Shown here: piece after piece, positions 35,356 through 62,805 of the stretch
How the letters are laid out: each line of letters begins with the position of its first letter
How positions within the stretch are numbered: the first letter of the stretch is position 1
Made by a program: the position numbers and the translations under genes
Notes under the pieces: generated by a model
The model's database searches: none
Told to the model about the DNA's origin: nothing
What the model saw: the letters and a program-made list of their open reading frames with translations, nothing else
From: an uncultured Acidimicrobiales bacterium
GTDB taxonomy: Bacteria; Actinomycetota; Acidimicrobiia; Acidimicrobiales; RAAP-2
Direction of reading: 5' to 3'
DNA: 64,000 nt
Assembly (NCBI GenBank): GCA_963699055.1
Contig: CAVOTA010000002.1
Location: 1,036,430 to 1,100,429, forward strand

Positions 35356-35787
35356 CGGGTCGACACCTCCCCCTGTCAGCCGCAGGCGATGTCCCCCCCG
35401 GGGGCCCCTGCCGGTCGCGCCCTGCGACGTACAGCAAGGTACGACAACACGGGTTGCTTGGCAACTGATTCCGTTGTAGGTGAGGTGCCCCGGACGACGG
35501 CGTCCCACCAGGTCACTCCGAGGGCAGAGCCGGTCCCACCTGGATAAAGAAGTCTTTACCCCGATCGGCGGTCGCCGGCCGGGTCGCCGGGTGTGCGTGT
35601 CGCTACTGCTCCGTTCATCACCCTTCGTGGTCAGACCACCACGTCATGACGTTTCGTTTGCCGGACGCCGATCGGCGCCATATCTTCGCCGCTGTCGCCG
35701 CAACTGGCGGTGCGGAGGGGACCGGTCGATTCGGGCCCGGGCGACGCGACGCCGACTCCGGGGGGAGCTACGAGGGGGAGGTCCGGC

Positions 35788-42216: not shown

Positions 42217-42301
42217 GCACCTCCCGACGCTCCGTGCGGGCGCCGAGCTGACGCCCTCCGTCCGCCGCAGTCCGCGGCCCGACCAGAAAGCGGCTTCCAC
42301 G

Positions 42302-48338: not shown

Positions 48339-48389
48339 CGGACGGTGGCCCCGCCGTCGTGGGCGGCAGCCGATCCGAGGAGGAGCGCA

Positions 48390-49004: not shown

Positions 49005-49670
49005 TCAGCGGAGAGGACCACGCTCGGCGAACCCGGTGGCGAGCAGCCGGAACGCCCGGTCGACCTCGGACACCAGGTCGTCGCCGTCGCTGCGGGCCCA
49101 ACAGGCGAATGCGGCCATGGCCGCCCCGAGCGCGGCCCGGGCCACCGTCTGGGGTCCGAGGTCGTCCGGCGACCCGCCCATGCGGCCGGCGGCGAACCCG
49201 GCGACCACGTCGCACCACTCCTGGTAGCGCACGGCCGAGTGGGCCACCAACGTGGGCACGGTGCCGATCAGGACCATGCGGATCCGGAGCTCCTCGAGCT
49301 CCCCGGCGCCGAACCGGTTGGTGGCCATCACCGACCGCCGCACCACGTCCATCAGGGGTTCGGTGGCCGGCGCCTCGTCGAGTCGGGCCCGGAGGCGGAC
49401 GAGTTCGGCGTCGAACTCACCCCATACGACGTCCGGCTTCGACTCGAAGTACCGGAAGAACGTGCGCCGCGAGATCCCGACCGCCGCCGCGATCTCGTCG
49501 ACCGTGGTGGCGTCGTACCCCTGACGTGCGAACAGGTCGAGCGCGGCCCGCGCCACGTCCTGGCGCGAGGTGCTCGCCGGGCGCCCGCGCGACGGCTCCG
49601 TCGGCCCGCCCCCGGCTCCCCCGGCCACCGCCGTCACCGCTCCCCGGTCGTCACGCTTCCATTTTGGCAT
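49005..49670 (-). CDS. mftR: TetR-family regulator MftR
   Basis: ORF 49005..49814, with ATG at 49670. The HTH reads ALDLFARQGYDATTVDEIAAAVGISRRTFFRYFESK. It is divergent from mftA. Confidence 0.85.
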   Translation of the reverse strand: MPKWKRDDRGAVTAVAGGAGGGPTEPSRGRPASTSRQDVARAALDLFARQGYDATTVDEIAAAVGISRRTFFRYFESKPDVVWGEFDAELVRLRARLDEAPATEPLMDVVRRSVMATNRFGAGELEELRIRMVLIGTVPTLVAHSAVRYQEWCDVVAGFAAGRMGGSPDDLGPQTVARAALGAAMAAFACWARSDGDDLVSEVDRAFRLLATGFAERGPLR

Positions 49671-49673
49671 CGA

Positions 49674-49690
49674 GTGCACTGAAATTGCAC
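49674..49690. promoter_or_regulatory. Candidate MftR operator (inverted repeat GTGCA-N7-TGCAC)
   Basis: GTGCACTGAAATTGCAC lies in the 67-nt mftR-mftA intergenic region. Confidence 0.35.
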
Positions 49691-49737
49691 CAACCGCACG
49701 AGACCCGGCCCCGGCCGGCCGATCCACCGGAGGACCC

Positions 49738-49887
49738 ATGACCCCCACCACCGCCCCGGAGACGACCGAGGCCGACCCGGCCGAGCACGATGCCGCCACC
49801 CCCGCAGCGGGCACGGCGACGCCGCTGGTCGCGGGTGACCTGCTCGTCGAGGACGTGTCGATCGACGGGATGTGCGGCGTCTACTAG
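49738..49887 (+). CDS. mftA: Mycofactocin precursor peptide MftA (49 aa)
   Basis: The ATG at 49738 follows GGAGGA. The peptide ends ...LLVEDVSIDGMCGVY, the hallmark MftA C-terminus. Confidence 0.92.
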   Translation: MTPTTAPETTEADPAEHDAATPAAGTATPLVAGDLLVEDVSIDGMCGVY

Positions 49888-49924
49888 ACCGCGCCGCACC
49901 CGACCCGACCCGCAGACCGACGCC

Positions 49925-50218
49925 ATGAGCCAACCCACCACCGCACCCGGGTACGACGCGGCGCGCCCCTGGGAGCTCCACCCCCAGGTGTCGCTCCGTC
50001 CCGAGTCGTTCGGCGCCCTCGCCTACCACTTCGGCACCCGCCGGCTCTCGTTCCTGAAGAGCCGCACGCTCCTGACCGTCGTCGAGTCCCTGGCCGACCA
50101 GCCGTCGGGCCTGGCCGCCTGCCGGGCCGCCGGTGTGCCCGACGGCGAGCTCGACGCCTACGAGCAGGCCCTGGCCACCCTGGCCCGGACGGGCATGATC
50201 TGCGAGCGGGTCGCGTGA
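49925..50218 (+). CDS. mftB: Mycofactocin biosynthesis chaperone MftB
   Basis: ATG at 49925. The protein has PWELHPQVSLRPESFGALAYHFGTRRLSFLKS (PqqD/RRE-like). It sits between mftA and mftC. Confidence 0.88.
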   Translation: MSQPTTAPGYDAARPWELHPQVSLRPESFGALAYHFGTRRLSFLKSRTLLTVVESLADQPSGLAACRAAGVPDGELDAYEQALATLARTGMICERVA

Positions 50219-51426
50219 GCGGCACCGGCCACGACACCGGGTTCCGGCTGGTCGACCGGTTCGAGCACGGGCTCGACGCACCGATCTGCCTCACGTGGGA
50301 GCTCACCTACGCGTGCAACCTCGCCTGCGTCCACTGCCTGTCGAGCTCGGGGCGACGCGACCCGCGCGAGCTGTCGACCGACGAGTGCAAGGCGCTCATC
50401 GACGAGTTCGAGCGCATGCAGATCTTCTACGTCAACATCGGCGGGGGCGAGCCCACCATCCGGTCGGACTTCTGGGAGCTCGTGGCCTACGCCACGGCCC
50501 ACCACGTCGGGGTCAAGTTCTCGACCAACGGCTCGCGCATCACCGCGGAGGTCGCCGCCCGGCTGGCCGCCAGCGACTACGTCGACGTCCAGCTGTCGCT
50601 CGACGGCGCCACGGCCGAGGTGAACGACGCCGTGCGGGGCGAGGGCTCCTTCGCCACCGCCGTGGGTGCCATGGAGCACCTGGCCGCGGCCGGGTTCGCC
50701 GGCTTCAAGCTGTCCGTGGTGGTCACCCGGCACAACGTGGGCCAACTCGACGGGTTCAAGGCACTGGCCGACCGCCACGGCGCCCAGCTGCGGCTGACAC
50801 GGCTGCGCCCGGCCGGCCGGGGTGCCGACGTGTGGGACGAGCTGCACCCGACCGCCGACCAGCAGCGCCAGCTGTACGACTGGCTGGTGGCCCGGGGCGA
50901 GGACGTCCTGACCGGTGACTCCTTCTTCCACCTGGCGGCCTACGGGGACGCCCTACCGGGTCTCAACCTGTGCGGTGCGGGACGCGTGGTGTGCCTGGTC
51001 GACCCGGTGGGCGACGTCTACGCGTGCCCGTTCGCCATCCACGACGAGTTCCTGGCCGGCAACGTGCGCCACGGCGGCGGGTTCACCGACGTCTGGCGCA
51101 CCTCCGAGCTCTTCACCGAGCTCCGCTCCCCCCAGAGTGCCGGCGCCTGCTCGTCCTGCGGCCACTTCGACGCCTGCCGGGGCGGCTGCATGGCGGCCAA
51201 GTTCTTCACCGGGCTCCCCCTCGACGGACCGGACCCCGAGTGCGTCCTCGGCCACGGCGCCCACGCCCTCGACGCCCGGGACGGCTCGGCCACGCCGCGG
51301 CCCTCCCCGGACCACTCGGCACGGCCGCGCCGGGTGGCGGTGGCGGTGACCCCCACCCGTCGGCCCGACCGCCGGTGCGACGAGAGCCCGCTGGCCGGGG
51401 CCGGCACCGCCCCCCGGGCGACGTGA
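50215..51426 (+). CDS. mftC: Mycofactocin radical SAM maturase MftC
   Basis: ORF 50215..51426. It has the CNLACVHC (CX3CX2C) motif and SPASM-type Cys clusters (CGAGRVVC...YACPF...CSSCGHFDACRGGC). Its GTG overlaps the mftB stop. Confidence 0.93.
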   Translation: MSGTGHDTGFRLVDRFEHGLDAPICLTWELTYACNLACVHCLSSSGRRDPRELSTDECKALIDEFERMQIFYVNIGGGEPTIRSDFWELVAYATAHHVGVKFSTNGSRITAEVAARLAASDYVDVQLSLDGATAEVNDAVRGEGSFATAVGAMEHLAAAGFAGFKLSVVVTRHNVGQLDGFKALADRHGAQLRLTRLRPAGRGADVWDELHPTADQQRQLYDWLVARGEDVLTGDSFFHLAAYGDALPGLNLCGAGRVVCLVDPVGDVYACPFAIHDEFLAGNVRHGGGFTDVWRTSELFTELRSPQSAGACSSCGHFDACRGGCMAAKFFTGLPLDGPDPECVLGHGAHALDARDGSATPRPSPDHSARPRRVAVAVTPTRRPDRRCDESPLAGAGTAPRAT

Positions 51427-53420
51427 CCGGTCCCCGGCTGACCGACCCGGTCACCCTCGGGACCCGGGAGGCGCCCTCCCGGGTCGTCTTCGGCCCCCAC
51501 GAGACGAACCTCGGGGAGGGTCGGGCCATCGGCCCCCGGCACGTGGCCTACTACGCGGCCCGGGCGGCCGGCGGTGCCGGCGTCCTGGTCACCGAGACGG
51601 CCTCCGTCGACCCGTCCGACTGGCCCTACGAGCGCGCCCCGCTGGCCACGTCGTGCGGGCCGGGATGGCGGTCGGTGGCCGAGGCGTGCCGTCCCCACGG
51701 CACGGTCGTCCTCGCCGGACTCGGGCACGCCGGCGGGCAGGGGTCGAGTGCGTACTCGCAGTCCGTCCTGTGGGCCCCGTCGCCGGTGGCCGATGCCGCC
51801 AGCCGGGAGCTGCCGATGGCGATGGGGTCCGTCGAGCTGGCCGCCGTCGTCGACGGGTTCGCCACCGCGGCCCGGGCGGCGGTCGACGCCGGGCTCGACG
51901 GCGTCGAGGTCGACGCCGGGGCCATCTCCCTCCTCCGCCAATTCCACTCCGGCATCACCAACCAGCGGTCCGACGCCTACGGCGAGGACCGTCTCCGCCT
52001 CACCCGCGAGGTGCTGGACGCCGTGCGGGCCGCCGTCGGACCCGGTGCGGTGGTCGCCCTCCGCCTGTCGTGCGACGAGCTGGCCCCGTGGGCGGGTGTC
52101 ACCCCCGAGCAGGCGGCGGCCCACGTCGCCGAGCTGGCCGACCGGCTCGACCTCCTGACCGTCGTGCGCGGGGGCCCGTACTCGGCCACCGCCTACCGGC
52201 CCGACGCCCACACCGGGGCCGGGTTCAACCTCGAGCTGTGCGCCGCCATGCGCCGGGCGGCCGCCGGGCGGGTGCCGGTGGTGTTCCAGGGCAGCGTGGT
52301 CGACCCCGACCGGGCCGGCGCCGCCCTGGACGACGGTGCGGCCGATCTGGTGGAGATGACCCGGGCCCAGATCGCCGAGTCCGGACTGGTGGCCCTGGTG
52401 CGCGCCGGGCGGGCCGCCGAGGCACGGCCGTGCATCCTGTGCAATCAGGCCTGCCGGGTGCGCGACAACCGCAACCCCCTGGTCAGCTGCGTGGGTGATC
52501 CCCGTGCCGGACACGAGACGGTGGACGTCGATCCGGTGCACGCCGCGGCCGGGATCCCCGGCGCCGCCGTCCCGCCCGTGCTGGTGGTGGGTGCCGGTCC
52601 GGCCGGTCTCGAGTGCGCCCGGGTGCTGGCCAGCCGCGGCCACGACGTACGGGTCGTCGACCGCGCCCCGGTCACCGGTGGGGCCCTGCGGGCCGCCGCC
52701 GTGGGACCCGGGCGCGAGCGGCTCGCCGACCTGGTGGGCTGGCTGGCCGCCGAGTGCGCCCGGCTCGGCGTGGACGTCGAGCTCGGGCACCGGGTGGACG
52801 CCGCCGAGCTGGACGCGGCGCGGGCCGACGGGATCACCGTGGTGCTGGCCACGGGCGGACGGCGGGCGCCGTGGGAGCTGCCCACGGACGGCTCGGTCCC
52901 GGTGGTCGACGCCGCCACGGCACTGTCCGGCGGCGTCGACTCCCTGCCCGACGGTCCGGCCGTGGTCCACGACCCGGTCGGCGGGCCGGTGGCCGTCGGG
53001 GTGGCCGAGTGGCTGGCGGCCGCCGGCCGCGACGTCGCCCTGGTCACCCCCGACCAGATCGCCGGCACCCTGCTCTCGTTGACCGGTGACCTGGCCGACG
53101 CCAACACCCGCCTGCAGCGGGCCGGGGTGCGCCGCGAGCTGCGCGCCCTGCTGCGCCGGATCGCCGTCGGCGAGGTCCACGTCGAGGACGTCTGGACCGG
53201 CGAGGCCCGCGCCGTGACCGCCGCCGTCGTCGTCGACTGTGGGCACCGCCTCCCCGAGGAGCACCTCTACGACGCCCACCCGGGCACCCTGCGGGCCGGG
53301 GACTGCGTGGCCCCCCGCACGGTGCTCGAGGCCGTGCTCGAGGGCCGGAGGCGGGCACTCGAGATCTGCGGGGCGGTTCCCGCGGCCCGCGTCCCCACCA
53401 CCACAGGAGCGACCCCATGA
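51423..53420 (+). CDS. FadH/OYE-family flavin oxidoreductase (2,4-dienoyl-CoA-reductase-like), mycofactocin-system type
   Basis: Part of ORF 50970..53420, with a GTG at 51423 overlapping the mftC stop. It has an OYE barrel (FGPHETN...NQRSDAYGEDRLRL), the CILCNQACRV Fe-S motif and VLVVGAGPAGLECA. Confidence 0.85.
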   Translation: MTGPRLTDPVTLGTREAPSRVVFGPHETNLGEGRAIGPRHVAYYAARAAGGAGVLVTETASVDPSDWPYERAPLATSCGPGWRSVAEACRPHGTVVLAGLGHAGGQGSSAYSQSVLWAPSPVADAASRELPMAMGSVELAAVVDGFATAARAAVDAGLDGVEVDAGAISLLRQFHSGITNQRSDAYGEDRLRLTREVLDAVRAAVGPGAVVALRLSCDELAPWAGVTPEQAAAHVAELADRLDLLTVVRGGPYSATAYRPDAHTGAGFNLELCAAMRRAAAGRVPVVFQGSVVDPDRAGAALDDGAADLVEMTRAQIAESGLVALVRAGRAAEARPCILCNQACRVRDNRNPLVSCVGDPRAGHETVDVDPVHAAAGIPGAAVPPVLVVGAGPAGLECARVLASRGHDVRVVDRAPVTGGALRAAAVGPGRERLADLVGWLAAECARLGVDVELGHRVDAAELDAARADGITVVLATGGRRAPWELPTDGSVPVVDAATALSGGVDSLPDGPAVVHDPVGGPVAVGVAEWLAAAGRDVALVTPDQIAGTLLSLTGDLADANTRLQRAGVRRELRALLRRIAVGEVHVEDVWTGEARAVTAAVVVDCGHRLPEEHLYDAHPGTLRAGDCVAPRTVLEAVLEGRRRALEICGAVPAARVPTTTGATP

Positions 53421-54262
53421 CCGATTCCGAGCCCGTCGCCGGGACCGACCGCAGCCGGGGACGGGTGGCCGGCAAGGTCGCCCTCGTCACCGGGGCCGCA
53501 CGGGGCCAGGGGCGCAGCCACGCCGTCCGGCTGGCCGCCGAGGGGGCCGACATCGTCGCCGTCGACCTCTGCGCGCCGGTGGCCCACGTGGACTACGACA
53601 CCGCGACACCCGAGGACATGGCCGTCACCTCCCGGCTGGTCGAGGAGGCCGGCGGCCGGATCGTCACCGCCGCCGTCGACGTCCGCGACGCCGGCGGTCT
53701 GGCCGACGCCGTGGCCGGGGGCGCAGCGGCCCTCGGGGGTCTCGACATCGCCGTGGCCAACGCCGGCGTGTGCTCGATCCAGCGGTGGGACGAGGTGACC
53801 CCCGAGCTGTGGGACACGGTGATCGGCATCAACCTGACCGGGGTCTGGAACACCTGTACCGCCGCCATCCCCCACCTGCTGGAACGGGGCGGTGGCTCGA
53901 TGGTGCTCATCAGTTCGACGGCGGGGCTGAAGGGCCAGCCGTTCCTCACCCCCTACGTCGCCTCCAAGCACGGACTGGTCGGCATCATGCGGAGCCTGGC
54001 CAACGAGCTCGCCGCCCGGCACATCCGGGTGAACTCCCTCCACCCGACCGGGGTCGACACCCCGATGCTGAACGCCATGACGGGGCTGACCGAGCGCATC
54101 GAGGCCAGCCCCGACGTCGGTTCCCTCTTCCTCAATTCGCTGCCGGTCGACCTGGTCCGGGCCGAGGACGTCTCCCACGCCGTGCTGTTCCTCGCCTCGG
54201 ACGAGGCGAGGTACGTGACCGGCCTCACCATGACCGTCGACGCCGGGGCCTCGGCCCGGTGA
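53417..54262 (+). CDS. Mycofactocin-coupled SDR-family oxidoreductase
   Basis: ORF 53417..54262. It has GKVALVTGAARGQGRSHAVRLAAEGADIVAVDLC (characteristic of the nicotinoprotein SDR subgroup) and YVASKHG (YxxxK). It is coupled by an ATGA overlap. Confidence 0.85.
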   Translation: MTDSEPVAGTDRSRGRVAGKVALVTGAARGQGRSHAVRLAAEGADIVAVDLCAPVAHVDYDTATPEDMAVTSRLVEEAGGRIVTAAVDVRDAGGLADAVAGGAAALGGLDIAVANAGVCSIQRWDEVTPELWDTVIGINLTGVWNTCTAAIPHLLERGGGSMVLISSTAGLKGQPFLTPYVASKHGLVGIMRSLANELAARHIRVNSLHPTGVDTPMLNAMTGLTERIEASPDVGSLFLNSLPVDLVRAEDVSHAVLFLASDEARYVTGLTMTVDAGASAR

Positions 54263-54284
54263 GCCCGCCCCGGGGGACGACCCG

Positions 54285-56252
54285 ATGAGCGCCGGGGGCC
54301 GCTACCGCCACCTGTTCACCCCGCTGCGCCTCGGACCGGTGACGGTGGCCAACCGGATCGTCTTCTCCGCGCACCTCACCAACTACGCCACCGACGGCCT
54401 GCCCACCGAGCAGCACGCCGCGTACTACGCCGCCCGCGCCGCCGGGGGCGTGGGCCTCGTGATCACCGAGGAGCACTCCACCCACCCCACGGACTGGCCC
54501 TACGAGAAGCTGATCCACGGGTTCCACCCCCGGGTGGTCGACGGGTACCGGCGGATCACCGACGCCGTCCACGCCCACGACGTCCCCGTCTTCGCCCAGC
54601 TCAACCACAACGGGGGCCAGGCCTCGTCGATGTACTCGCGGCTGCCGGTGTGGGCCCCGAGCCCGGTCCCGGACCCGCTCTTCCGCGAGGTGCCCAAGGC
54701 GGTGGAGCACCACGAGATCGCCGAGATCGTGGACGGCTACGCCACCGTCGCCGCCCACTGCGCGGCAGGCGGCTTCGACGGGGTGGAGCTCCAGTGCTCC
54801 CACTCCTCCATCGTCCGGGGCTTCCTGTCCCCGGCCACCAACCGGCGGACCGACGAGTACGGGGGCGACCTGACCGGACGGGCCCGGCTGCTGCTCGAGA
54901 TCGTCGACGCCGTGCGCTCCACCATCGGTTCGGACCGGGCGCTCGGCGTGCGCATCTGCGGCGACGAGCTGATCGAGGGCGGCACCGACATCGACGACGC
55001 CGTGGCCGTGGCCCGCATGGTCGAGGCCAGCGGTCAGGTCGACTACATCAACACCTCGATCGGCGTGGCCACCGCCACCCTGTACATGATCGAGGCCAGC
55101 ATGCAGATCCCGCCCGGCTACGCCCTGTTCGTCCCGAGCGCCATCCGGGCCGCCGTCGACCTGCCGGTGGTGGGGGTCGGCCGGTTCAAGGACCCGCTCC
55201 AGGCCGACCGGGCGCTGGCCGACGGCGTCTGCGACCTGGTGGGGGTCGTCCGGGGTCAGATCGCCGACCCCGACTTCGCCGCCAAGGCGCGTTCGGGGCA
55301 CGCCACCGACATCCGCACCTGCCTGTCGTGCAACCAGGAGTGCGTCGGCCGGATGGGCCTGAACCGGTGGCTCGGCTGCATCGAAAACCCCCGCACCGGT
55401 CGCGAGGCGGAGCCCGTCCCCGCACCCCGTCGGCGGCGCAAGGTCGTCGTGGTCGGGGGCGGGCCGGGCGGGCTCCAGGCCGCCGTCACCGCCGCCGGGC
55501 GCGGCCACCACGTCGTGCTCTTCGAGCGGCACGACCGACTCGGCGGCCAGGCCCACGTGGCGGCGTCGGTACCCAGCCGCGCCGAGTTCTTCGACATCGC
55601 CCGCAACCTGATCGTGGCCGCCCGCCGCGAGGGCGTCGACCTGCGCACCGGGGTCGAGGCCACGGCCGACACGGTCCGGGCCGAGTCGCCCGATGCCGTC
55701 GTCGTCGCCACCGGCGCCCGCCCGGCGCGTCCGTGGTGGGCCGGCGGGGAGCCCCGCGTCGTCGATGTGCGCGACGTCCTGGAGGGACGGGCCCGTCCCG
55801 AGGGCCGGGTGGTGGTCGTCGACGAGCTCGGCTTCCACCAGGCCACCTCCACGGCCGAACTGCTGGCCGACCGGGGCTGCACCGTCGAGATCGTCACCAA
55901 CGGCATGGTGGTGGCCCAGGACCTCGGGATCACCCTGGACATGGAGATGTGGAACGTGAAGGCGCACGCCCTCGGGATCGGCCAGGCCGTCGACCTCGTA
56001 CCCATGGGGGTCGGGCCGGCCCCCGACGGGTCGGACGCGCTCGAGCTGCGCCTCCAGCACCACCCGACCGGGACCGACCAGGCCCGGACGTGCGACTGGG
56101 TGGTGTGCGCCGTGCACCAGCAGCCGGAGGACGACCTGTGGCACGCCCTCGACGGCGCGCCCTTCGAGGTCCACCGCATCGGTGACTGCGTCGCCCCCCG
56201 CCGCGCCCATGCCGCCGTCATCGAGGCCGACCGCGTGGCGGTGGCGCTGTGA
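54285..56252 (+). CDS. FadH/OYE-family flavin oxidoreductase, second paralog
   Basis: ORF 54285..56252. Motifs HSSIVRGFLSPATNRRTDEYGG, CLSCNQECVGR and VVVVGGGPGGLQAA are present. Confidence 0.87.
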   Translation: MSAGGRYRHLFTPLRLGPVTVANRIVFSAHLTNYATDGLPTEQHAAYYAARAAGGVGLVITEEHSTHPTDWPYEKLIHGFHPRVVDGYRRITDAVHAHDVPVFAQLNHNGGQASSMYSRLPVWAPSPVPDPLFREVPKAVEHHEIAEIVDGYATVAAHCAAGGFDGVELQCSHSSIVRGFLSPATNRRTDEYGGDLTGRARLLLEIVDAVRSTIGSDRALGVRICGDELIEGGTDIDDAVAVARMVEASGQVDYINTSIGVATATLYMIEASMQIPPGYALFVPSAIRAAVDLPVVGVGRFKDPLQADRALADGVCDLVGVVRGQIADPDFAAKARSGHATDIRTCLSCNQECVGRMGLNRWLGCIENPRTGREAEPVPAPRRRRKVVVVGGGPGGLQAAVTAAGRGHHVVLFERHDRLGGQAHVAASVPSRAEFFDIARNLIVAARREGVDLRTGVEATADTVRAESPDAVVVATGARPARPWWAGGEPRVVDVRDVLEGRARPEGRVVVVDELGFHQATSTAELLADRGCTVEIVTNGMVVAQDLGITLDMEMWNVKAHALGIGQAVDLVPMGVGPAPDGSDALELRLQHHPTGTDQARTCDWVVCAVHQQPEDDLWHALDGAPFEVHRIGDCVAPRRAHAAVIEADRVAVAL

Positions 56253-57265
56253 GCGGGTCGACCGGCGGCACCGTCGCCGTGGTCGTGGCCCGGGACGGCC
56301 GCCTGCCCGTCGGGGCGGCCGAGGCGGTGGCCGAGGCCGGCGGCCGGGTGGTGGTCGTGGGCTCGGGGGCCGAGGAGGCCGCCCGGTCCCTGCCCGGGGC
56401 CGTGCACGCCCGCTGGGCGGAGACGGGCCGGGGACTGCGGCCGGCGGAGCTGGCCGCCTCCCTCGCCCCCGTCGTGGCCGACGAGACCCTGGTGATCCTG
56501 CCCGCCTCGCCCGACGGCCGCGACCTGGCGCCACGTCTGGCCGCGGCCACCGACCGCCCGCTGGTGGCCCGGGTGCTCGAGGCGGCCACCGGCCCCGCCG
56601 CCGACGGCACCACGTGCGTCCGCGCCCGGGTGGGACGCGTGGACGACCGGGTGCTGGTGCCGGTGGAGGTCCGCGGACCGGCGGTGGTCACCCTGGCCGC
56701 CGGCGGCCGGCCGGGCACCCGGGCCGACGGGGCCCCGCCCGGGACCGTGGTCGAGCCGGTGGGTCTCGCCGGGGCGGAGTGCGGTCCCGACCCGGAGCTC
56801 GTCGGACTGCTGGCCCCCGACCTGCACACCATGGACCTGGCCGACGCCACCCGGGTGGTGGTCGGCGGCGCCGGTCTCGCGGCCGGGCTCGACGACGCAC
56901 GGGCCGCCGCCGTCTTCGGCCTGCTCGTCCGGGTGGCCGGTGCCATGGGCGGCTCGGCCGGCGCCACCCGGGTGGCCACCGACGCCGGCTGGACCGGCTA
57001 CGAACGCCAGATCGGCACCACGGGCGTGACGGTGGACCCCGACCTCTACGTGGCGCTGGGCGTGTCGGGCGCCGTCCAGCACACCGGCGGCATCGGCGCC
57101 CCCCGCCACGTGGTGAGCGTCAACACCGACCCGTCGTGCCCGATGACGGCCATGGCCGACCTGGGCCTGGTGACCGATGCCGGAGCCCTCCTCGTGGAGC
57201 TGGCCGGGCGCCTCGACGTGGCCGGCGACCCGGTGGCACCGGGGGCGGCGGGGGCGGTCCGATGA
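56249..57265 (+). CDS. etfA: Electron transfer flavoprotein alpha-subunit-like (EtfA/FixB family)
   Basis: ORF 56249..57265. The C-terminal FAD domain reads GATRVATDAGWTGYERQIGTTGVTVDPDLYVALGVSGAVQHTGG...VVSVNTDPSCPM. Its GTG overlaps the upstream stop. Confidence 0.8.
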   Translation: MSGSTGGTVAVVVARDGRLPVGAAEAVAEAGGRVVVVGSGAEEAARSLPGAVHARWAETGRGLRPAELAASLAPVVADETLVILPASPDGRDLAPRLAAATDRPLVARVLEAATGPAADGTTCVRARVGRVDDRVLVPVEVRGPAVVTLAAGGRPGTRADGAPPGTVVEPVGLAGAECGPDPELVGLLAPDLHTMDLADATRVVVGGAGLAAGLDDARAAAVFGLLVRVAGAMGGSAGATRVATDAGWTGYERQIGTTGVTVDPDLYVALGVSGAVQHTGGIGAPRHVVSVNTDPSCPMTAMADLGLVTDAGALLVELAGRLDVAGDPVAPGAAGAVR

Positions 57266-58578
57266 CCGGGCGTCACGACGTCGACGTCGACGCCGTCGTG
57301 GTCGGTGCCGGCCCCGCCGGCGCCTCGGCCGCCCTCGCCCTGGCCCGCGCCGGGCGGCGCGTCGTGCTGGTGGAGCGCGGCCCGTTCCCCGGGTCCAAGA
57401 ACGTCTACGGCGGCGTGGTCTACGGCCGCGTGCTCGACGACATCGTGCCCCGGTGGTGGGAGGAGGCACCGGTCGAGCGCTGGATCGTGCGCCGGTCCAC
57501 CATGATGGTGACCGGGTCGCAGTCGCTGTCGGTCGACTTCCGGTCCGACGCCTGGGGCAGCGCCCCCTACAACGGGATGACCACCCTGCGGTGCCACTTC
57601 GACGCCTGGCTGGCGGGCAAGGCGACCGCGGCGGGGGCGCAGCTCCTGACCTCCACGGTGGCCACGGGACTGGTGCGCGACGCCGGCGGCCGGGTGGTCG
57701 GCGTCCGGACGGACCGCGACGGCGCCGAGCTCCGCGCGCCGGTGGTGATCGCCTGCGACGGCGTCAACTCGTTCCTGGCCAAGGAGGCCGGGCTGCTGCC
57801 CAGGGCCGAGGCCTCCCACCACACACTGGGCGTCAAGGAGGTGCTCGACCTCCCGCCCGGCGCCATCAACGAACGCTTCGGGGTCCAGGACCACGAGGGC
57901 GTCGACGTGGAGATCCTGGGCTGCACCCGGGAGATCCCCGGAGGCGGGTTCCTGTACACGAACGCCGATTCGGTGAGCATCGGCGTGGTGGTGTCGCTGC
58001 CGGAGCTGGCGGCGTCGGGGGTCCGGCCCGAGACCCTGGTGGCCGACCTGAAGGCACACCCGACGATCGCCCCCCTGCTGCGGGGTGCGACGCTGCGCGA
58101 GTACGCGGCACACCTGATCCCCGAGGGCGGCTACGACACCATGCCGACCCTCGCCACCGACGGCCTGCTGATCGCCGGCGACGCCGGGGCGATGACCCTG
58201 GCGGCCGGGCTGTGGCTCGAGGGCGTGAACTTCGCCATCGGCTCGGGCCACGCCGCCGGACGGGCGGTCGACCGGGCGCTCGACCGTGGGGACTGCTCGG
58301 CCGCCGGCCTCGCCTCCTACCGGGCCGACCTCGAGGGGCAGTTCGTGCTGGCCGACCACAAGCGGCTGCGCAAGGCGCCGGCCCTCGTGCTGTCCGACCG
58401 CGTCCAGCAGCGCTACCCCGGGCTGCTGTGCGACCTGGCCGAGGGGATGTTCACCGTGACCAACCCGACGCCCAAGCCCGGTGGACTCAAGCTCACCCGG
58501 ACCGTCGCCGCCCGACACGGCGTGTCGCTCCGCCAGCTGGCCGGCGACACCCTGCGCGGACTGAGGATCTTCGGATGA
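57262..58578 (+). CDS. fixC: FAD-dependent oxidoreductase FixC-like (ETF:quinone oxidoreductase type)
   Basis: Part of ORF 56182..58578, with ATG at 57262 (ATGA overlap). It has DAVVVGAGPAGASAALALARAG and a FixC-like body (GDAGAMTLAAGLWLEGVNFAIGSG). Confidence 0.82.
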   Translation: MTGRHDVDVDAVVVGAGPAGASAALALARAGRRVVLVERGPFPGSKNVYGGVVYGRVLDDIVPRWWEEAPVERWIVRRSTMMVTGSQSLSVDFRSDAWGSAPYNGMTTLRCHFDAWLAGKATAAGAQLLTSTVATGLVRDAGGRVVGVRTDRDGAELRAPVVIACDGVNSFLAKEAGLLPRAEASHHTLGVKEVLDLPPGAINERFGVQDHEGVDVEILGCTREIPGGGFLYTNADSVSIGVVVSLPELAASGVRPETLVADLKAHPTIAPLLRGATLREYAAHLIPEGGYDTMPTLATDGLLIAGDAGAMTLAAGLWLEGVNFAIGSGHAAGRAVDRALDRGDCSAAGLASYRADLEGQFVLADHKRLRKAPALVLSDRVQQRYPGLLCDLAEGMFTVTNPTPKPGGLKLTRTVAARHGVSLRQLAGDTLRGLRIFG

Positions 58579-58883
58579 GCGGCGCCGGCGCCCGCCGCTG
58601 GGACGGGATCTCCTTCGAGGAGCGCATGGCCACCGTCGACTTCCGGATCGGCGCCCGGGCCCACATCACCGTCGACGCCGACGTGTGCCGCTCGTGCACG
58701 ACCAAGGTGTGTGTGAGCGCGTGCCCGGCCGATCTCTTCGCGCCCACGGCCGACGGCGGCATCCTGTTCAACTACGAGGAGTGCTTCGAGTGCGGGACCT
58801 GCTACATGGTCTGCAACGCCGAGGGCGCCATCACCTGGACCTACCCCGACGGCGGCCACGGCGTCGTCTTCCACCACGGATGA
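58575..58883 (+). CDS. fixX: Ferredoxin-like protein FixX
   Basis: ATG at 58575 (ATGA overlap). The protein reads MSGAGARRWDGISFEERMATVDFRI...CRSCTTKVCVSACPA...CFECGTCYMVC. Confidence 0.8.
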   Translation: MSGAGARRWDGISFEERMATVDFRIGARAHITVDADVCRSCTTKVCVSACPADLFAPTADGGILFNYEECFECGTCYMVCNAEGAITWTYPDGGHGVVFHHG

Positions 58884-59860
58884 CGGTCGGACCCGGACCC
58901 GACGGCGGCCCCCGACGGGGGGCCGGCACCACACCGCTGGTGGTGGCCTGCCTGCGCATCAGCGACCTGCGACCGACCGTCGACCCGCTCGAGGGGACGG
59001 TCACCCGGGACCGGCTCGGTGTCGGGCTGTCCCCCGCCGATGCCGCCGCCCTCGAGCACGCCCTGCGGATCGCCGACACGTGGTCCGGTCGGGTGGTGGC
59101 CGTGTGCGTGGGTCCGGTCTCGGTGGAACCGGTGCTGCGCGACGTCGCCGGCCGGGGGGTCACCGTCGTACGTGTGCCGCTGGGCGACGAGGGGGACGGG
59201 CACCGCTACGTGGGCGAGCTGGTCGAGGACGAGCGCGACCTCGCCCGCACGCTGGCCGCCGCCATCGCACCGTTCGGCCGACCCGACCTGGTGGTGTGCG
59301 GCGACCGCTCGGTCGACCGCGGCACCGGCGCCCTGCCCGCCTTCCTGGCCCACGAACTGGGCGCGGCCCAGGCGCTCGGCCTGGTCGCCGTGGTACCGAC
59401 GGACGGACCCGGTGGACGGCGGGCGCTGGCGGCCGAGCGGCGCCTCGACGGGGGCTGGCGTGAGCGCCTCCTGGTCCCCCTCCCCGCCGTGTGCTCCGTG
59501 GAGGGTGCCGGCGTCCGGCTGCGCCGGGCCCCGCTGGCGGGCGCCCTGGCCGCCGGGGCCGCACCGGTGCCGGTCGACCGGTCACTGGCCGTGGCGGCCG
59601 CCGCCCTCGCCGAACCCGGGGCCTTCCACGTGGGGGCGCCACGCCCGTTCCGGCCGCGTGCCCGCGTCCTGCCGGCACCGCACGGACGGGACCCGCGGCA
59701 GCGGCTGCTGGCGCTGACCGGAGCACTGGTGGCCCACGATCCCCCGACGGTGGTGGAGCCGGCCGACGCCTCCGAGGCGGCGGATGTCCTGCTCGCCTTC
59801 CTCGCCCGGCACGGCTACCTGGGTGACGGGGACCACAGTGGGGACGGGGCCTCGCCGTGA
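58880..59860 (+). CDS. etfB: Electron transfer flavoprotein beta-subunit-like (EtfB/FixA family), with extensions
   Basis: Part of ORF 58685..59860, with ATG at 58880 (ATGA overlap). The core reads LVVACLRISDLRP...LSPADAAALEHALRIAD...PDLVVCGDRSVDRGTGALPAFLAHELG. Confidence 0.72.
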   Translation: MTVGPGPDGGPRRGAGTTPLVVACLRISDLRPTVDPLEGTVTRDRLGVGLSPADAAALEHALRIADTWSGRVVAVCVGPVSVEPVLRDVAGRGVTVVRVPLGDEGDGHRYVGELVEDERDLARTLAAAIAPFGRPDLVVCGDRSVDRGTGALPAFLAHELGAAQALGLVAVVPTDGPGGRRALAAERRLDGGWRERLLVPLPAVCSVEGAGVRLRRAPLAGALAAGAAPVPVDRSLAVAAAALAEPGAFHVGAPRPFRPRARVLPAPHGRDPRQRLLALTGALVAHDPPTVVEPADASEAADVLLAFLARHGYLGDGDHSGDGASP

Positions 59861-60588
59861 TCCGGCTGGCGGAGCTCGCCTGGCCCGAGGTGGCCCGACT
59901 GGCGGAAGCCGGTGCCGTCCTGGTGGTGCCGGTCGGCGCCTGCGAACAGCACGGCCCCCACCTGCCCGTGACCACCGACGCCGACCTGGCCGAGGCCGTC
60001 GCCGGTGCGGCCGGCGAGCTCGACCCGCTGCTCGTGGTCGCCCCCGTCGTCGCCTACGGGTCGTCGGGTGAGCACGACGGGTTCGCCGGCACCCTCTCCG
60101 TGGGCCGTGACGTCACCGAGCAGCTGCTCGTCGAGCTGGGCCGCTCCGCCTCGGCGACCTTCGTCCACGTCGTGCTCGCCTGCACCCACGGCGGCAACGC
60201 CGCGCCGTTCCGGGCCGCCCTGGCCCGCCTGGCCGCCGAGGGGTGTCCGGTGTCGGGATGGTGGCCGCGGTGGGGCGGCGACCTGCATGCCGGGCGCACC
60301 GAGACGTCGTTGATGCTGGCCGTCGCCCCCGACCGGGTGCGCTCCGGCGCCGCCGTCCCCGGGAACCGTCGCCCGCTCGACGAGCTCCTGCCCCTGCTCG
60401 AGACGGGCGGGGTCCGGTCGGTCAGCCCCAACGGCGTCCTCGGCGATCCCACCGGCGCCGGCGCCGAGGAGGGCCGGGCCCTGCTGCGCACCGCCGGCGC
60501 CGACCTGGCCGCCACCGCCGCCCGGGCCCGGGCGGGCGCCACCGTCGCCGTCGCCGTCCCTGCGAACGAGAGTGAGGTACCCGCATGA
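59857..60588 (+). CDS. mftE: Mycofactocin biosynthesis peptidyl-dipeptidase MftE (creatininase family)
   Basis: ORF 59857..60588. It has VVPVGACEQHGPHLP and HAGRTETS. Its GTG overlaps the etfB-like stop. Confidence 0.88.
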   Translation: MIRLAELAWPEVARLAEAGAVLVVPVGACEQHGPHLPVTTDADLAEAVAGAAGELDPLLVVAPVVAYGSSGEHDGFAGTLSVGRDVTEQLLVELGRSASATFVHVVLACTHGGNAAPFRAALARLAAEGCPVSGWWPRWGGDLHAGRTETSLMLAVAPDRVRSGAAVPGNRRPLDELLPLLETGGVRSVSPNGVLGDPTGAGAEEGRALLRTAGADLAATAARARAGATVAVAVPANESEVPA

Positions 60589-61385
60589 GCCGAGTCGCCG
60601 TCGTGACCGGAGGGGCCCGGGGCATCGGGGCCGCCACCGTCTGCGGCCTGGCCGCGGCCGGCTGGCGGGTGGTGGCCGTCGACCGGGCCGGGGACGACCC
60701 CCGGGTTCCCTATCCCCTCGGCACCCGGGCCGAGCTCGACGCCACGGTGGCCCTGGCCGACCGGCTCGGCGGCGGCACCGGTGCGGTGGTGGCCCACGTG
60801 GCCGACACGACCGACGAGGCGGCGCTGGCCGTGGCGGTGGCCCTCGCCGAGGAACGCTTCGGTGGTGTCGACGCCGTCGTGGCCGTCGCCGGTGTCATCG
60901 CCGGCGGCACCCCCCTGTGGGAGATGCCGGCCGCCCAGCTCGAGGCCGTGCTGGCCGTGGACCTCGGGGGCCCGATCGCCGCCGCCAGGGTCGGGATCCC
61001 GGCGCTGCTCCGCCGGCCGGCACCCCGCCAGGGGCGCTACCTGGCCGTGGCGTCGGCGGCCGCCACCCGGGGGATGGCGGCCCTGGCCGCCTACGGCGCC
61101 GCCAAGGCCGGCGTGGCCGGTCTGGTGCGGGGACTCGCCGCCGACCTCGCCGGCACCGGCGTCACCGCCAACGCCGTGTGCCCCGGCTCCACCGACACGG
61201 CCATGCTGGCCGAGAGCGCCCGGCTCTACGGACTGCCCGACACGGCCCCCTTCGCCGACCAGCAGGCGATCGGCCGCCTGCTCGCCCCCGAGGAGGTGGC
61301 CGCCGCCCTGGTGTGGCTGGCCGGCGAGGCGAGCAGTGCCCTCACCGGTGCCGTGGTGCCGGTCGACGGCGGCCTGGCGCTGTGA
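60585..61385 (+). CDS. Mycofactocin-coupled SDR-family oxidoreductase, second type
   Basis: ORF 60585..61385. It has VAVVTGGARGIGAA and YGAAKAG (YxxxK). It sits between mftE and mftF. Confidence 0.82.
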   Translation: MSRVAVVTGGARGIGAATVCGLAAAGWRVVAVDRAGDDPRVPYPLGTRAELDATVALADRLGGGTGAVVAHVADTTDEAALAVAVALAEERFGGVDAVVAVAGVIAGGTPLWEMPAAQLEAVLAVDLGGPIAAARVGIPALLRRPAPRQGRYLAVASAAATRGMAALAAYGAAKAGVAGLVRGLAADLAGTGVTANAVCPGSTDTAMLAESARLYGLPDTAPFADQQAIGRLLAPEEVAAALVWLAGEASSALTGAVVPVDGGLAL

Positions 61386-61395
61386 CCTCCGGCTG

Positions 61396-62805
61396 ATGAC
61401 GGCGCTGCCGGAGGGGTTCGGCCTGGCGCTCGACCGCCGGCTCCGGCGCTTCGGCGACGGCACGGTTCTGGCCGGTGGTCACCCGGGCCGGGTGGTGACG
61501 CTCACCCCGCGGGGTGCCCTCGCCCTCGACGGGCTGGTGGCCAGCGGCGTCGCCGACCCCGCCACCCGGGAGCTGGCCGGCCGCCTGGTCGACGCCGGGA
61601 TGGCCCACCCCCGACCACCGGGACGCCCGACCCGGTCCGCGCCCGCCGTCACCGTCGTCGTACCGGCCTTCGGACGGCCCGGGGCCCTGGCGCGGTGCCT
61701 CGCCGCCCTCGGCGACGGGCATCCGGTGGTGGTGGTCGACGACGGATCCCCCGACCCCGGGCCGCTGGCCGACGCGTGCGCCGCCCACGGTGCGACCCTG
61801 GTGCGACGGCCGGTCAACGGTGGACCGGGCGAGGCCCGCAACGCGGCGCTGGCGCACGTCGGGACCGACCTGGTGGCCTTCGTCGACAGCGACTGCACGG
61901 TGGGACCCGGCTGGTTGGAGGGACTGACGTGGCTGTTCGCCGACCCGGACGTCGCCGCGGTGGCACCCCGGATCGTCCCCGACCGTCCGGAGCCCGGCGA
62001 CCGGCGGGTCCTCGACCGGTTCGAGGCGGCGCGCTCGCCGTTGGACCTCGGGGCCGAGGAGGGTGAGGTCGGCCCGACGCGATCGGTCCGCTACGTGCCC
62101 ACCGCCGCCCTGGTGGTCCGGCGGCGGGCACTGGAGGCCGTCGGCGGGTTCACCCCGGGTCTGCGGGTCGGCGAGGACGTGGACCTGGTGTGGCGGCTCG
62201 TCGGCGCCGGCTGGCGGGTCCGCTACGCGCCCGACGTCACCGTGGGCCACGCCGAGCCCCGGACCTGGTCCGACCTGCTGGCCCGGCGCTTCCGCTACGG
62301 CACGTCGGCCGGGCCGCTGGCCGCCCGCCATCCGGGCCGACTGGCCCCGGTCGAGTTGCGTCCGTGGCCGGCGGCCGCGGCCGCGGCCGCGCTGCTCGGT
62401 CGCCCGGGGACGGCGGCCGTCGCCGTCGCCGGGTCCGGGATCGTCCTGGCCCGGACCGTGGGCCCTCTCGGGGTACCGGGCGGGCAGGCGTGGGCGTGGA
62501 GCGCCGGAGGTGCCGGCTGGACCGTGGTGGGGCTGGGCCGGGCCGCCACCACGCTGGCCTCCCCGGTGCTGGTGTTCCTCGCCGGCCGGGGCGGCAGGGC
62601 CGCCCGCGCCGCCCTCGCCCTCGCCGTGGTCCCCCCGGCCGTGGAGTGGGTGCGGCGCCGGCCCGACCTCGACCTGCCCCGGTGGATGGCGGCGTCCGTG
62701 GCGGATGACGTCGCCTACGGCGCCGGGGTGTGGACGGGGTGCCTCCGCTCCCGGTCCTTCGGGCCCCTCCTGCCCACCCTCCGGACGGGCCGCCGACAAT
62801 CGTGA
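61396..62805 (+). CDS. mftF: Mycofactocin biosynthesis glycosyltransferase MftF
   Basis: Part of ORF 60781..62805, with ATG at 61396. It has a GT2 core (VTVVVPAFGRPGALARCLAAL, VVVVDDGSPDP, FVDSDC, GEDVDLVWR) plus a C-terminal membrane region. Confidence 0.88.
   Translation: MTALPEGFGLALDRRLRRFGDGTVLAGGHPGRVVTLTPRGALALDGLVASGVADPATRELAGRLVDAGMAHPRPPGRPTRSAPAVTVVVPAFGRPGALARCLAALGDGHPVVVVDDGSPDPGPLADACAAHGATLVRRPVNGGPGEARNAALAHVGTDLVAFVDSDCTVGPGWLEGLTWLFADPDVAAVAPRIVPDRPEPGDRRVLDRFEAARSPLDLGAEEGEVGPTRSVRYVPTAALVVRRRALEAVGGFTPGLRVGEDVDLVWRLVGAGWRVRYAPDVTVGHAEPRTWSDLLARRFRYGTSAGPLAARHPGRLAPVELRPWPAAAAAAALLGRPGTAAVAVAGSGIVLARTVGPLGVPGGQAWAWSAGGAGWTVVGLGRAATTLASPVLVFLAGRGGRAARAALALAVVPPAVEWVRRRPDLDLPRWMAASVADDVAYGAGVWTGCLRSRSFGPLLPTLRTGRRQS

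What the first reader, a model, noticed from the sequence alone, without database searches (positions are those of the whole stretch)
49005..62805. Mycofactocin operon with mftR-A-B-C...E...F but no mftD in 13.8 kb
MftA (C-terminus IDGMCGVY), MftB, MftC (CX3CX2C plus SPASM), MftE (creatininase motifs) and MftF (GT2) are all recognisable. The space between them is fully occupied by two FadH/OYE enzymes, two SDRs and the ETF/FixCX module. No FMN-dependent alpha-hydroxy-acid-oxidase-like MftD is present, nor is one found in the flanks within the window. In the established pathway MftD converts the MftE product AHDP into premycofactocin. Its absence therefore implies one of three things. The gene may lie elsewhere. 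One of the co-operonic FMN enzymes may substitute. Or a different end product may be made. Eight of the eleven gene junctions from mftB to mftF are 4-nt overlaps.
Basis: partly seen in the sequence, partly recalled or inferred. Interest (0 to 1): 0.7.

Follow-up and report, generated by a model that had tools for sequence, protein, structure and literature searches.

The report
Mycofactocin operon lacking mftD, with ETF module
This is an intact mycofactocin cofactor operon of an already catalogued variant: it carries an electron-transfer flavoprotein module and lacks the usual maturation enzyme MftD and recycling enzyme MftG, so it is a known kind that still poses an unanswered biochemical question.

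Summary
Window 49005-62805 encodes mftR, then on the other strand mftA-B-C, FadH/OYE-1, SDR, FadH/OYE-2, etfA, fixC, fixX, etfB, mftE, SDR and mftF. The named mycofactocin-family genes score above curated NCBIfam cut-offs; fixC and fixX are homologues only. No MftD-like sequence occurs in any frame of the 64 kb.

The architecture is not new. NCBIfam has dedicated models for the OYE and ETF genes. RefSeq annotates the same cluster on Streptomyces and haloarchaeal plasmids. Haft (2011) said MftD is not universal. BGCFlow (2023) reported mftD-less, OYE-bearing clusters in Saccharopolyspora, and S. erythraea makes methylmycofactocin.

Across 98 loci, the ETF/FixCX genes never co-occur with mftD (0/14 against 56/84) or mftG (0/14 against 32/84). 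The OYE-SDR-OYE trio does co-occur with both in Rhodococcus, so the OYEs are not simple MftD substitutes. Sister Acidimicrobiaceae loci are colinear with the window but lack the whole 8.6 kb block, and they also lack mftD.

Most likely the block links mycofactocin to the quinone pool in place of MftG, and a non-MftD enzyme performs the deamination step. An unlinked mftD could not be excluded because the rest of the genome was not searchable. Interest is moderate.

The parts
49005..49670 (-). mftR, a TetR-family regulator divergent from mftA. The start is uncertain; the ORF is open to 49814.
   Evidence: TIGR03968 235.3 bits against cut-off 224.9; frame plot.
49738..49887 (+). mftA precursor peptide, 49 aa, C-terminus IDGMCGVY, GGAGGA upstream
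   Evidence: TIGR03969 48.1 bits against cut-off 25; sequence.
49925..50218 (+). mftB chaperone
   Evidence: TIGR03967 116.4 against 33.
50215..51426 (+). mftC radical SAM/SPASM maturase
   Evidence: TIGR03962 658 against 265; CX3CX2C at residue 34.
51423..53420 (+). FadH/OYE family oxidoreductase 1, a three-domain FMN / 4Fe-4S / FAD flavoenzyme
   Evidence: TIGR03996 919.7 against 627.9. Full-length homology to DCR 1PS9, NCR 6QKG, histamine dehydrogenase and TMADH. C-x2-C-x3-C-x11-C at residue 337 and a single GxGxxG at 390.
53417..54262 (+). mycofactocin-coupled SDR (subfamily 1, nicotinoprotein type)
   Evidence: TIGR03971 357.9 against 300.
54285..56252 (+). FadH/OYE family oxidoreductase 2
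   Evidence: TIGR03997 1001.3 against 793. PDB homologues and alignment. 4Fe-4S motif at residue 346 and a single GxGxxG at 391.
56249..57265 (+). mycofactocin-associated ETF alpha subunit
   Evidence: NF038209 377.2 against 240.
57262..58578 (+). FixC-like FAD oxidoreductase (ETF-quinone oxidoreductase type)
   Evidence: PRK10015 and PRK10157 at E=1e-96 and 1e-93, below the equivalog cut-offs.
58575..58883 (+). FixX-like ferredoxin
   Evidence: PRK15449 at E=3.6e-14, below cut-off.
58880..59860 (+). mycofactocin-associated ETF beta subunit
   Evidence: TIGR04503 350.3 against 200.
59857..60588 (+). mftE peptidase (creatininase family)
   Evidence: TIGR03964 250.7 against 172.
60585..61385 (+). 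mycofactocin-coupled SDR (subfamily 2/4)
   Evidence: TIGR04504 330.1 against 250; NF040491 300 against 265.
61396..62805 (+). mftF glycosyltransferase
   Evidence: TIGR03965 395.2 against 280.

Best explanation
The locus is an intact, translationally coupled operon from an Acidimicrobiaceae-like actinobacterium. It belongs to a recurrent and already curated class of mycofactocin loci. A redox block (FadH/OYE-1, mycofactocin-coupled SDR, FadH/OYE-2, EtfA, FixC, FixX, EtfB) lies between mftC and mftE, and both mftD and mftG are missing.

Shown: the gene identities; that mftD and mftG are absent here; that they are absent from every ETF-type locus examined; and that the class recurs across three lineages.

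Inferred:
- MftA is processed by MftB/C and MftE to the intermediate AHDP, and the product is glycosylated by MftF.
- The SDRs are clients of the cofactor.
- The two Fe-S flavoenzymes carry only one dinucleotide-binding glycine motif. Like trimethylamine dehydrogenase (TMADH), they therefore probably do not use NAD(P)H.
- They would exchange electrons with the dedicated EtfAB, which feeds FixC/FixX and the menaquinone pool.
- The block thereby provides the cofactor-to-respiration link that MftG provides elsewhere.
- The AHDP-to-premycofactocin oxidation is done by an enzyme that is not an MftD orthologue. The best in-operon candidate is an OYE working with ETF as acceptor (about 0.3 on its own). 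Otherwise it is an unlinked, non-orthologous enzyme.
For: - All families score above curated cut-offs, and no MftD is present in 64 kb.
- The same gene order is found in relatives L001, L002, L009, L011 and L021.
- It also occurs on six inspected Streptomyces plasmids and in two haloarchaeal plasmids. All are annotated by RefSeq with the same product names.
- ETF-type loci have 0/14 with MftD and 0/14 with MftG. Other loci have 56/84 and 32/84 (Fisher p=1.6e-6 and 4e-3, not corrected for phylogeny).
- Among the 12 plasmids that carry MftC, exactly 4 have an MftD at >=60% identity anywhere on the plasmid, and none of those 4 is ETF-type.
- Within Streptomyces both cassettes occur: mftD+mftG, or OYE+ETF+FixCX.
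- A genome-wide published table shows no MftG in four ETF-type organisms seen here, nor in S. erythraea, Iamia or Ilumatobacter.
- S. erythraea, whose cluster lacks mftD and has OYE2, makes oxidised and reduced methylmycofactocins.
- OYE1 and OYE2 are full-length homologues of TMADH and histamine dehydrogenase. The TMADH-ETF complex is solved as 1O94/1O95. In OYE2 the third-domain segment aligns with TMADH's degenerate, non-NAD(P)H motif.
- In Acidimicrobiia that do have MftD, it lies directly after mftC in all 4 loci seen (L033, L060, L089, L090).
Against: - Orthologues of OYE1-SDR-OYE2 co-occur with mftD and mftG in Rhodococcus opacus and R. erythropolis. The OYEs therefore have a role of their own and need no dedicated ETF there.
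- Compact loci L010 and L019 are colinear with the window on both sides. They lack the whole block and also lack mftD. The missing mftD in this lineage is thus independent of the block.
- About a third of non-ETF loci (28/84) also have no mftD within 10 kb, for example the Nocardia mftB-C-F-G loci, so split systems are common.
- OYE1 and OYE2 lack the cysteine that forms covalent FMN in the amine dehydrogenases. They score closer to dienoyl-CoA and naphthoyl-CoA reductases.
- The rest of the source genome was not searchable.
- The locus counts are not phylogenetically independent, and the sample is biased towards relatives of the window.
Confidence: 0.5

Rival explanations
1. Split but conventional system. 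An ordinary mftD orthologue lies elsewhere in the genome. The OYE/SDR/ETF/FixCX block is only a mycofactocin-using catabolic or respiratory module with no part in making the cofactor.
For: - Split clusters are frequent. Nocardia loci are mftB-C-F-G with no mftD or mftE within 10 kb. Acidimicrobiia L089 and L090 are mftB-C-D with no mftE or mftF within 10 kb.
- The compact mftD-less loci L010 and L019 need an outside source of the activity anyway.
- The OYE trio coexists with mftD in Rhodococcus.
Against: - None of the eight ETF-type plasmids carries an MftD anywhere, although they carry all the other mft genes as one cassette.
- MftD is next to mftC in all four Acidimicrobiia loci that have it.
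- None of the 120 closest relatives of an Acidimicrobiales MftD lies on a contig of the length of the window's contig or its relatives' contigs. This is weak evidence: the list stops at 72% identity, and the same trick also misses known genes.
Confidence: 0.28
2. A different end product. Without MftD the pathway stops at glycosylated AHDP or another amine-bearing compound, giving a cofactor-like molecule with different chemistry.
For: No gene for the deamination step is recognisable in the operon or in the 64 kb window.
Against: - Two mycofactocin-coupled SDRs with non-exchangeable NAD are in the operon, and they need a redox-active partner (Haft 2011).
- MftA has the invariant IDGMCGVY end.
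- S. erythraea, with an mftD-less cluster, makes both keto and hydroxy forms of methylmycofactocin.
Confidence: 0.08
3. A decaying, non-functional cluster that has lost mftD.
For: The closest relative L001 shows several split genes: mftC, OYE1, SDR and etfB.
Against: - All 14 ORFs in the window are intact, with strong GC3 coding signal and nine 4-nt overlaps.
- The architecture is conserved from 65% to 93% protein identity across Acidimicrobiia, Streptomyces and haloarchaea.
- The breaks in L001 fit long-read indel errors.
Confidence: 0.03

Closest known systems
Conventional mycofactocin cluster mftR/mftA-B-C-D-E-F(-G), as in Mycobacterium, Tsukamurella (L092) and the Streptomyces sp. NBC_00080 plasmid (L005)
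   Same: mftR, mftA with IDGMCGVY, mftB, mftC, mftE and mftF are all present, in the same relative order, with 40-78% protein identity.
   Different: The window has no mftD and no mftG. An 8.6 kb block of seven redox genes lies where mftD normally sits, between mftC and mftE.
ETF-type mycofactocin clusters already annotated in RefSeq: Streptomyces plasmids NZ_CP107787, NZ_CP016083, NZ_CP107797, NZ_CP108009 and NZ_CP102515; haloarchaeal plasmids NC_013744 (Haloterrigena turkmenica) and NZ_CP054588 (Halolamina)
   Same: mftA-B-C, FadH/OYE, EtfA, FixC-like, FixX-like, EtfB, mftE and mftF are present, with no mftD and no mftG. Product names come from the same NCBIfam models.
   Different: The Streptomyces versions have no SDR between the two OYEs, and in most of them the mftE/mftF order is swapped. 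The haloarchaeal versions have a single OYE and the module on the opposite strand. The window's version is chromosomal, in an Acidimicrobiaceae-like genome.
Rhodococcus opacus B4 and R. erythropolis cluster: mftR-A-B-C-D-OYE1-SDR-OYE2-E-F-G (L097, L098)
   Same: The identical OYE1-SDR-OYE2 trio lies in the same place and order, with 55-67% identity.
   Different: Rhodococcus keeps mftD and mftG and has no EtfAB/FixCX. The window has EtfAB/FixCX and lacks mftD and mftG.
Saccharopolyspora mycofactocin-like clusters (BGCFlow, bioRxiv 10.1101/2023.06.14.545018)
   Same: They are reported to lack the TIGR03966 (mftD) profile while carrying TIGR03997 (OYE2) and an MftA ending IDGMCGVY. S. erythraea produces methylmycofactocins.
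   Different: Whether those clusters contain ETF/FixCX was not stated and could not be checked here.
Trimethylamine dehydrogenase with its ETF (PDB 1O94/1O95), and FixABCX / YdiQRST modules
   Same: The three-domain FMN / 4Fe-4S flavoenzyme fold, the C-x2-C-x3-C-x11-C motif, a third domain without a second GxGxxG, and a dedicated ETF encoded alongside. EtfA, EtfB, FixC and FixX are all four present.
   Different: There is no cysteine at the covalent-FMN position. The OYEs score higher against dienoyl-CoA and naphthoyl-CoA reductases. The ETF subunits are very divergent (EtfB only E=1e-8 to standard models). No substrate is known.

Membership tests
Mycofactocin system (Haft 2011; NCBIfam) | MftA precursor with the conserved C-terminal IDGMCGVY | tested here: met
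   49-aa ORF at 49738-49887; TIGR03969 48.1 bits against cut-off 25.
Mycofactocin system (Haft 2011; NCBIfam) | MftB, MftC (radical SAM/SPASM) and MftF (GT2). Together with MftA, these are the markers Haft found to be universal. | tested here: met
   TIGR03967, TIGR03962 and TIGR03965 all score above cut-off. Universality is stated in PMC3023750.
Mycofactocin system (Haft 2011; NCBIfam) | MftE peptidase and MftR regulator (common, not universal) | tested here: met
   TIGR03964 250.7 against 172; TIGR03968 235.3 against 224.9.
Mycofactocin system, established six-gene pathway | MftD, the FMN-dependent AHDP deaminase (TIGR03966 / PF01070) | tested here: not met
   No tblastn hit better than E=0.16 in six frames of the 64 kb window. 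None at E<=1e-5 with three references. The rest of the genome is not testable.
FadH/OYE + ETF class of mycofactocin loci (NCBIfam TIGR03996, TIGR03997, NF038209, TIGR04503) | OYE_1, OYE_2, mft_etfA and mft_etfB above curated cut-offs and adjacent to mftC | tested here: met
   919.7/627.9, 1001.3/793.2, 377.2/240 and 350.3/200. The same order is seen in 13 other loci.
FixABCX-type ETF / ETF-quinone oxidoreductase module | All four subunits (EtfB/FixA, EtfA/FixB, FixC, FixX) encoded together | tested here: met
   56249-59860. FixC is E=1.6e-96 to PRK10015 and FixX is E=3.6e-14 to PRK15449, both below the E. coli equivalog cut-offs, so they are homologues and not equivalogs.
FixABCX-type ETF / ETF-quinone oxidoreductase module | Bifurcating-type second FAD site in EtfB; quinone reduction | not tested
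   No motif or structural analysis was done. Biochemistry is needed.
TMADH / histamine dehydrogenase type amine dehydrogenases | Three-domain fold with 4Fe-4S motif and a third domain without an NAD(P)H glycine motif | tested here: met
   Full-length alignments to 1DJN, 3K30 and 6DE6. One GxGxxG per protein. The OYE2 segment aligns to the degenerate TMADH segment.
TMADH / histamine dehydrogenase type amine dehydrogenases | Cysteine forming 6-S-cysteinyl FMN (TMADH Cys30) | tested here: not met
   OYE2 has Leu (AHLTN) at the aligned position. OYE1 has PHETN, read by eye.
MftG-dependent mycofactocin recycling (GMC oxidoreductase) | An mftG gene near the cluster | tested here: not met
   No tblastn hit in the window. 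0/14 ETF-type loci have one. Genome-wide absence in four ETF-type organisms is shown in the eLife 2025 supplement.

The most novel reading that the evidence does not exclude
EtfAB-FixCX together with the two Fe-S flavoenzymes forms an alternative, quinone-coupled route that replaces both flavoenzymes of the textbook pathway. One OYE would oxidatively deaminate AHDP with ETF as acceptor, taking the role of MftD. The same chain would re-oxidise mycofactocinol into the respiratory chain, taking the role of MftG. That would make the two cassettes, {mftD, mftG} and {ETF, FixCX}, interchangeable solutions.
Probability: 0.25. Interest if true: 0.65.

Novelty: new member of a known kind. Interest (0 to 1): 0.37.

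Why it matters
The accepted pathway treats MftD as the enzyme that creates the redox-active keto-amide, and MftG as the link to respiration. A 2025 study left open what replaces MftG in the quarter of MftC-encoding genomes that lack it.

The comparison made here gives a concrete candidate. A dedicated ETF/FixCX chain is never found together with mftD or mftG. It travels with the rest of the genes as a self-contained plasmid cassette in Streptomyces and haloarchaea. Those cassettes are small enough to express in an mft-free host, which would show directly whether mycofactocin can be made and recycled without MftD and MftG.

No paper in the searchable library links mycofactocin with ETF or FixC.

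For this particular window the value is mainly as one more intact example, from an uncultured Acidimicrobiaceae lineage.

Tried and rejected
- **Exact-protein look-ups of three window proteins** found nothing, so the source contig could not be extended. It is 1,619,652 bp.
- **Contig length as a fingerprint for an unlinked mftD**. None of the 120 best MftD relatives lay on a contig matching the window's or its relatives' lengths. I do not rely on this. The list stops at 72% identity, and the EtfA genes of L009 and L021 are likewise missing from the list.
- **OYE2 as the specific MftD substitute.** In the first 89 loci OYE2 and MftD never co-occurred. The idea was rejected when R. opacus and R. 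erythropolis showed mftD next to OYE1-SDR-OYE2.
- **SDR subfamily 2 as a substitute.** Rejected, because it co-occurs with MftD in 14 loci.
- **A shared extra gene in the gaps of other mftD-less loci** (L084, L020, L024, L063, L032, L053, L018, L074). The gaps held only a LuxR-type regulator, MoxR-AAA and VWA proteins, a zinc ADH, a MOSC/FAD reductase, an ABC ATPase and a hydrolase.
- **The covalent-FMN cysteine of amine dehydrogenases** is not present.
- **A ribosomal-protein operon at 36-46 kb.** This early guess of mine was wrong.
- **Two papers could not be read**. The oxygen dependence of MftD therefore remains my recollection only and is not used as evidence.

Full report
**What is in the sequence**

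The window is 71-79% G+C, so most open frames are spurious. I placed genes by third-position G+C and by translation. From 49005 to 62805 there is one divergent regulator and a 13-gene + strand operon:
- mftR, 49005-~49670, minus strand
- mftA 49738-49887, 49 aa, ending DVSIDGMCGVY
- mftB 49925-50218
- mftC 50215-51426
- FadH/OYE-1 51423-53420
- an SDR 53417-54262
- FadH/OYE-2 54285-56252
- etfA 56249-57265
- fixC-like 57262-58578
- fixX-like 58575-58883
- etfB 58880-59860
- mftE 59857-60588
- a second SDR 60585-61385
- mftF 61396-62805

Every one of these except FixC and FixX scores above the curated cut-off of a dedicated NCBIfam model. That includes models named 'mycofactocin system FadH/OYE family oxidoreductase 1' and '2', and 'mycofactocin-associated electron transfer flavoprotein alpha' and 'beta subunit'. 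Nine of the eleven junctions from mftB to mftF are ATGA or GTGA 4-nt overlaps, so this is one translationally coupled operon.

**Is mftD really absent?**

I took a RefSeq-annotated MftD from the Mycolicibacterium chubuense plasmid and ran tblastn against all six frames of the 64 kb window. The best hit was E=0.16, which is noise. Two further MftD references and an MftG reference also gave nothing at E<=1e-5.

The window ends 1.2 kb after mftF. The two relatives fetched around EtfA, at 83% and 65% EtfA identity (L001, L002), have the same gene order. They show no FMN_dh gene in the roughly 4.5 kb beyond mftF or in the 3-4 kb upstream.

**Where it comes from**

The window's own proteins are masked from the exact-match index. 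Its EtfA sits on a 1.62 Mb contig. The best MftC match (85%) among species-representative genomes is an uncultured Acidimicrobiaceae metagenome-assembled genome (MAG).

**It is a known kind**

- The NCBIfam models show that curators already recognise these accessory genes as part of mycofactocin loci.
- RefSeq annotates the same cluster on Streptomyces linear plasmids. Six were inspected and a seventh MftC-bearing one was not.
- In a one-OYE form it also occurs on plasmids of the archaea Haloterrigena turkmenica and Halolamina sp..
- The BGCFlow paper reports 17 Saccharopolyspora clusters that lack the mftD profile but carry TIGR03997. It notes that S. erythraea nevertheless makes methylmycofactocin.
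- Ellerhorst et al. list MMFT-2, MMFT-2H2 and MMFT-3 for that strain.

A different end product is therefore unlikely. The absence of mftD is not a new observation.

**Comparative test**

I scanned species-representative genomes with an MftC alignment and received 80 loci with 10 kb flanks. I added plasmid loci and loci fetched around EtfA, MftD and OYE1 relatives. All 98 were annotated by tblastn with the window's proteins plus MftD and MftG references.

| Locus type | Loci | With MftD | With MftG |
|---|---|---|---|
| ETF/FixCX present | 14 | 0 | 0 |
| ETF/FixCX absent | 84 | 56 | 32 |

The Fisher p values are 1.6e-6 for MftD and 4e-3 for MftG. The counts are not phylogenetically independent: the 14 fall into three lineages, and the sample leans towards relatives of the window.

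Twelve plasmids carry MftC. Exactly four have an MftD at 60% identity or more anywhere on the replicon, and those four are the non-ETF ones. Within Streptomyces both cassettes exist: mftG-mftA-B-C-D-E-F, or mftA-B-C-OYE1-OYE2-etfA-fixC-fixX-etfB with mftE and mftF. A published genome-wide table shows no MftG at all in Halolamina sp. CBA1230, H. turkmenica, Streptomyces sp. SAT1 and S. yangpuensis. Its MftC accessions for these organisms are the ones in my loci. The same table shows no MftG in S. erythraea, Iamia or Ilumatobacter.

**Two results that cut against the simple substitution idea**

First, Rhodococcus opacus B4 and R. erythropolis carry mftR-A-B-C-mftD-OYE1-SDR-OYE2-mftE-mftF-mftG. 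The OYE-SDR-OYE trio therefore coexists with MftD and MftG and needs no dedicated ETF there. What is exclusive with MftD and MftG is ETF/FixCX, not the OYEs.

Second, two other Acidimicrobiaceae genomes (L010, L019) have a compact mftR-A-B-C-E-SDR-F locus. By blastn it is colinear with the window and with L002 on both sides. It differs only by lacking the ~8.6 kb OYE1-to-etfB block. Those loci also lack mftD. In this lineage the missing mftD is therefore not tied to the presence of the block.

More generally, 28 of 84 non-ETF loci have no mftD within 10 kb. They include nine Nocardia loci of the form mftB-C-F-G. Some Acidimicrobiia have mftB-C-D with no mftE or mftF nearby. Split arrangements are common.

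**What the block probably does**

OYE1 and OYE2 align over their full length with the three-domain Fe-S flavoenzymes. These are 2,4-dienoyl-CoA reductase, 2-naphthoyl-CoA reductase, histamine dehydrogenase and trimethylamine dehydrogenase. The last has been solved in complex with its ETF. Both OYEs have the C-x2-C-x3-C-x11-C cluster motif and only one GxGxxG. The OYE2 third-domain segment aligns with TMADH's degenerate segment, and the alignment to the NADPH-using dienoyl-CoA reductase stops at that point. This suggests the natural partner is not NAD(P)H, but it is an inference. They lack the cysteine that binds FMN covalently in the amine dehydrogenases.

Taken with the co-encoded EtfAB and the FixC/FixX pair, the most economical reading is an electron path between mycofactocin-linked flavoenzymes and the quinone pool. 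That is the job MftG does elsewhere. Whether one OYE also performs the AHDP deamination, with ETF as acceptor, is possible chemically but unsupported by the Rhodococcus and compact-locus data.

**What could not be settled**

I could not search the rest of the source genome. The contig-length trick gave a negative that I regard as weak. An unlinked mftD therefore remains a live rival, which I put at about 0.28.

In favour of a non-MftD route:
- The ETF-type cassettes on plasmids are otherwise complete.
- In all four Acidimicrobiia loci with MftD, the gene lies directly after mftC.

**Literature**

No paper in the searchable library contains both 'mycofactocin' and 'electron transfer flavoprotein' or 'FixC'. 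Only BGCFlow mentions TIGR03997.

**Verdict**

This is a correct observation of an intact operon. It is a new member of a known, curated class. The useful product of this check is the clean complementarity between ETF/FixCX and the mftD/mftG pair, which is testable with small plasmid cassettes. Interest is moderate.

Noticed in passing
window 29592-46283: Several very large ORFs full of He_PIG and TIG immunoglobulin-like repeats, with further repeat types in the two largest: 39094-42216 (+), 42161-45529 (+), 45249-46283 (+), 31756-35643 (-) and 29592-30767 (+). Their second-position G+C exceeds first-position G+C, which made a composition-based gene caller pick the wrong strand. Between 35.6 and 39 kb the strand assignment is unresolved: a + strand He_PIG hit conflicts with a strong - strand coding signal.
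   Followed up: partly
98 mft loci: The mycofactocin-coupled SDR of subfamily 2/4, the one between mftE and mftF in the window, almost never occurs with mftG. It is found in 1 of 32 mftG loci and in 31 of 66 loci without mftG. It does occur with or without mftD.
   Followed up: partly
L010 and L019 against window 51.3-59.9 kb and L002: The OYE1-SDR-OYE2-etfA-fixC-fixX-etfB block behaves as a single ~8.6 kb insertion or deletion in an otherwise colinear chromosomal context among Acidimicrobiaceae genomes.
   Followed up: yes
L020, L024, L063; L007 and L093: A MoxR-type AAA ATPase and a VWA (CoxE-like) protein lie inside or beside several mftD-less mycofactocin clusters, including both haloarchaeal ones. 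This suggests a cofactor-insertion chaperone pair associated with these systems.
   Followed up: no
L034, L038, L047, L050, L059, L065, L075, L077, L085 (Nocardia); L089, L090 (Acidimicrobiia): Other split forms of the cluster exist. Nocardia has mftB-C-F-G with no mftD or mftE within 10 kb. Some Acidimicrobiia have mftB-C-D with no mftE or mftF within 10 kb.
   Followed up: no
L001 3957-13625: In the closest relative of the window, mftC, OYE1, the SDR and etfB are each split into two or more called genes. This fits long-read indel errors or early decay.
   Followed up: no
L006, L094, L095, L096: In Streptomyces the ETF-type mycofactocin cassettes lie on large linear plasmids, right next to polyketide synthase and other secondary-metabolite genes.
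   Followed up: no
window 48345-48914 (+): A ~175-aa stretch with strong coding signal lies between a GNAT acetyltransferase and mftR and has no Pfam or NCBIfam match. Its frame stays open to 49682, across the mftR gene on the other strand.
   Followed up: no
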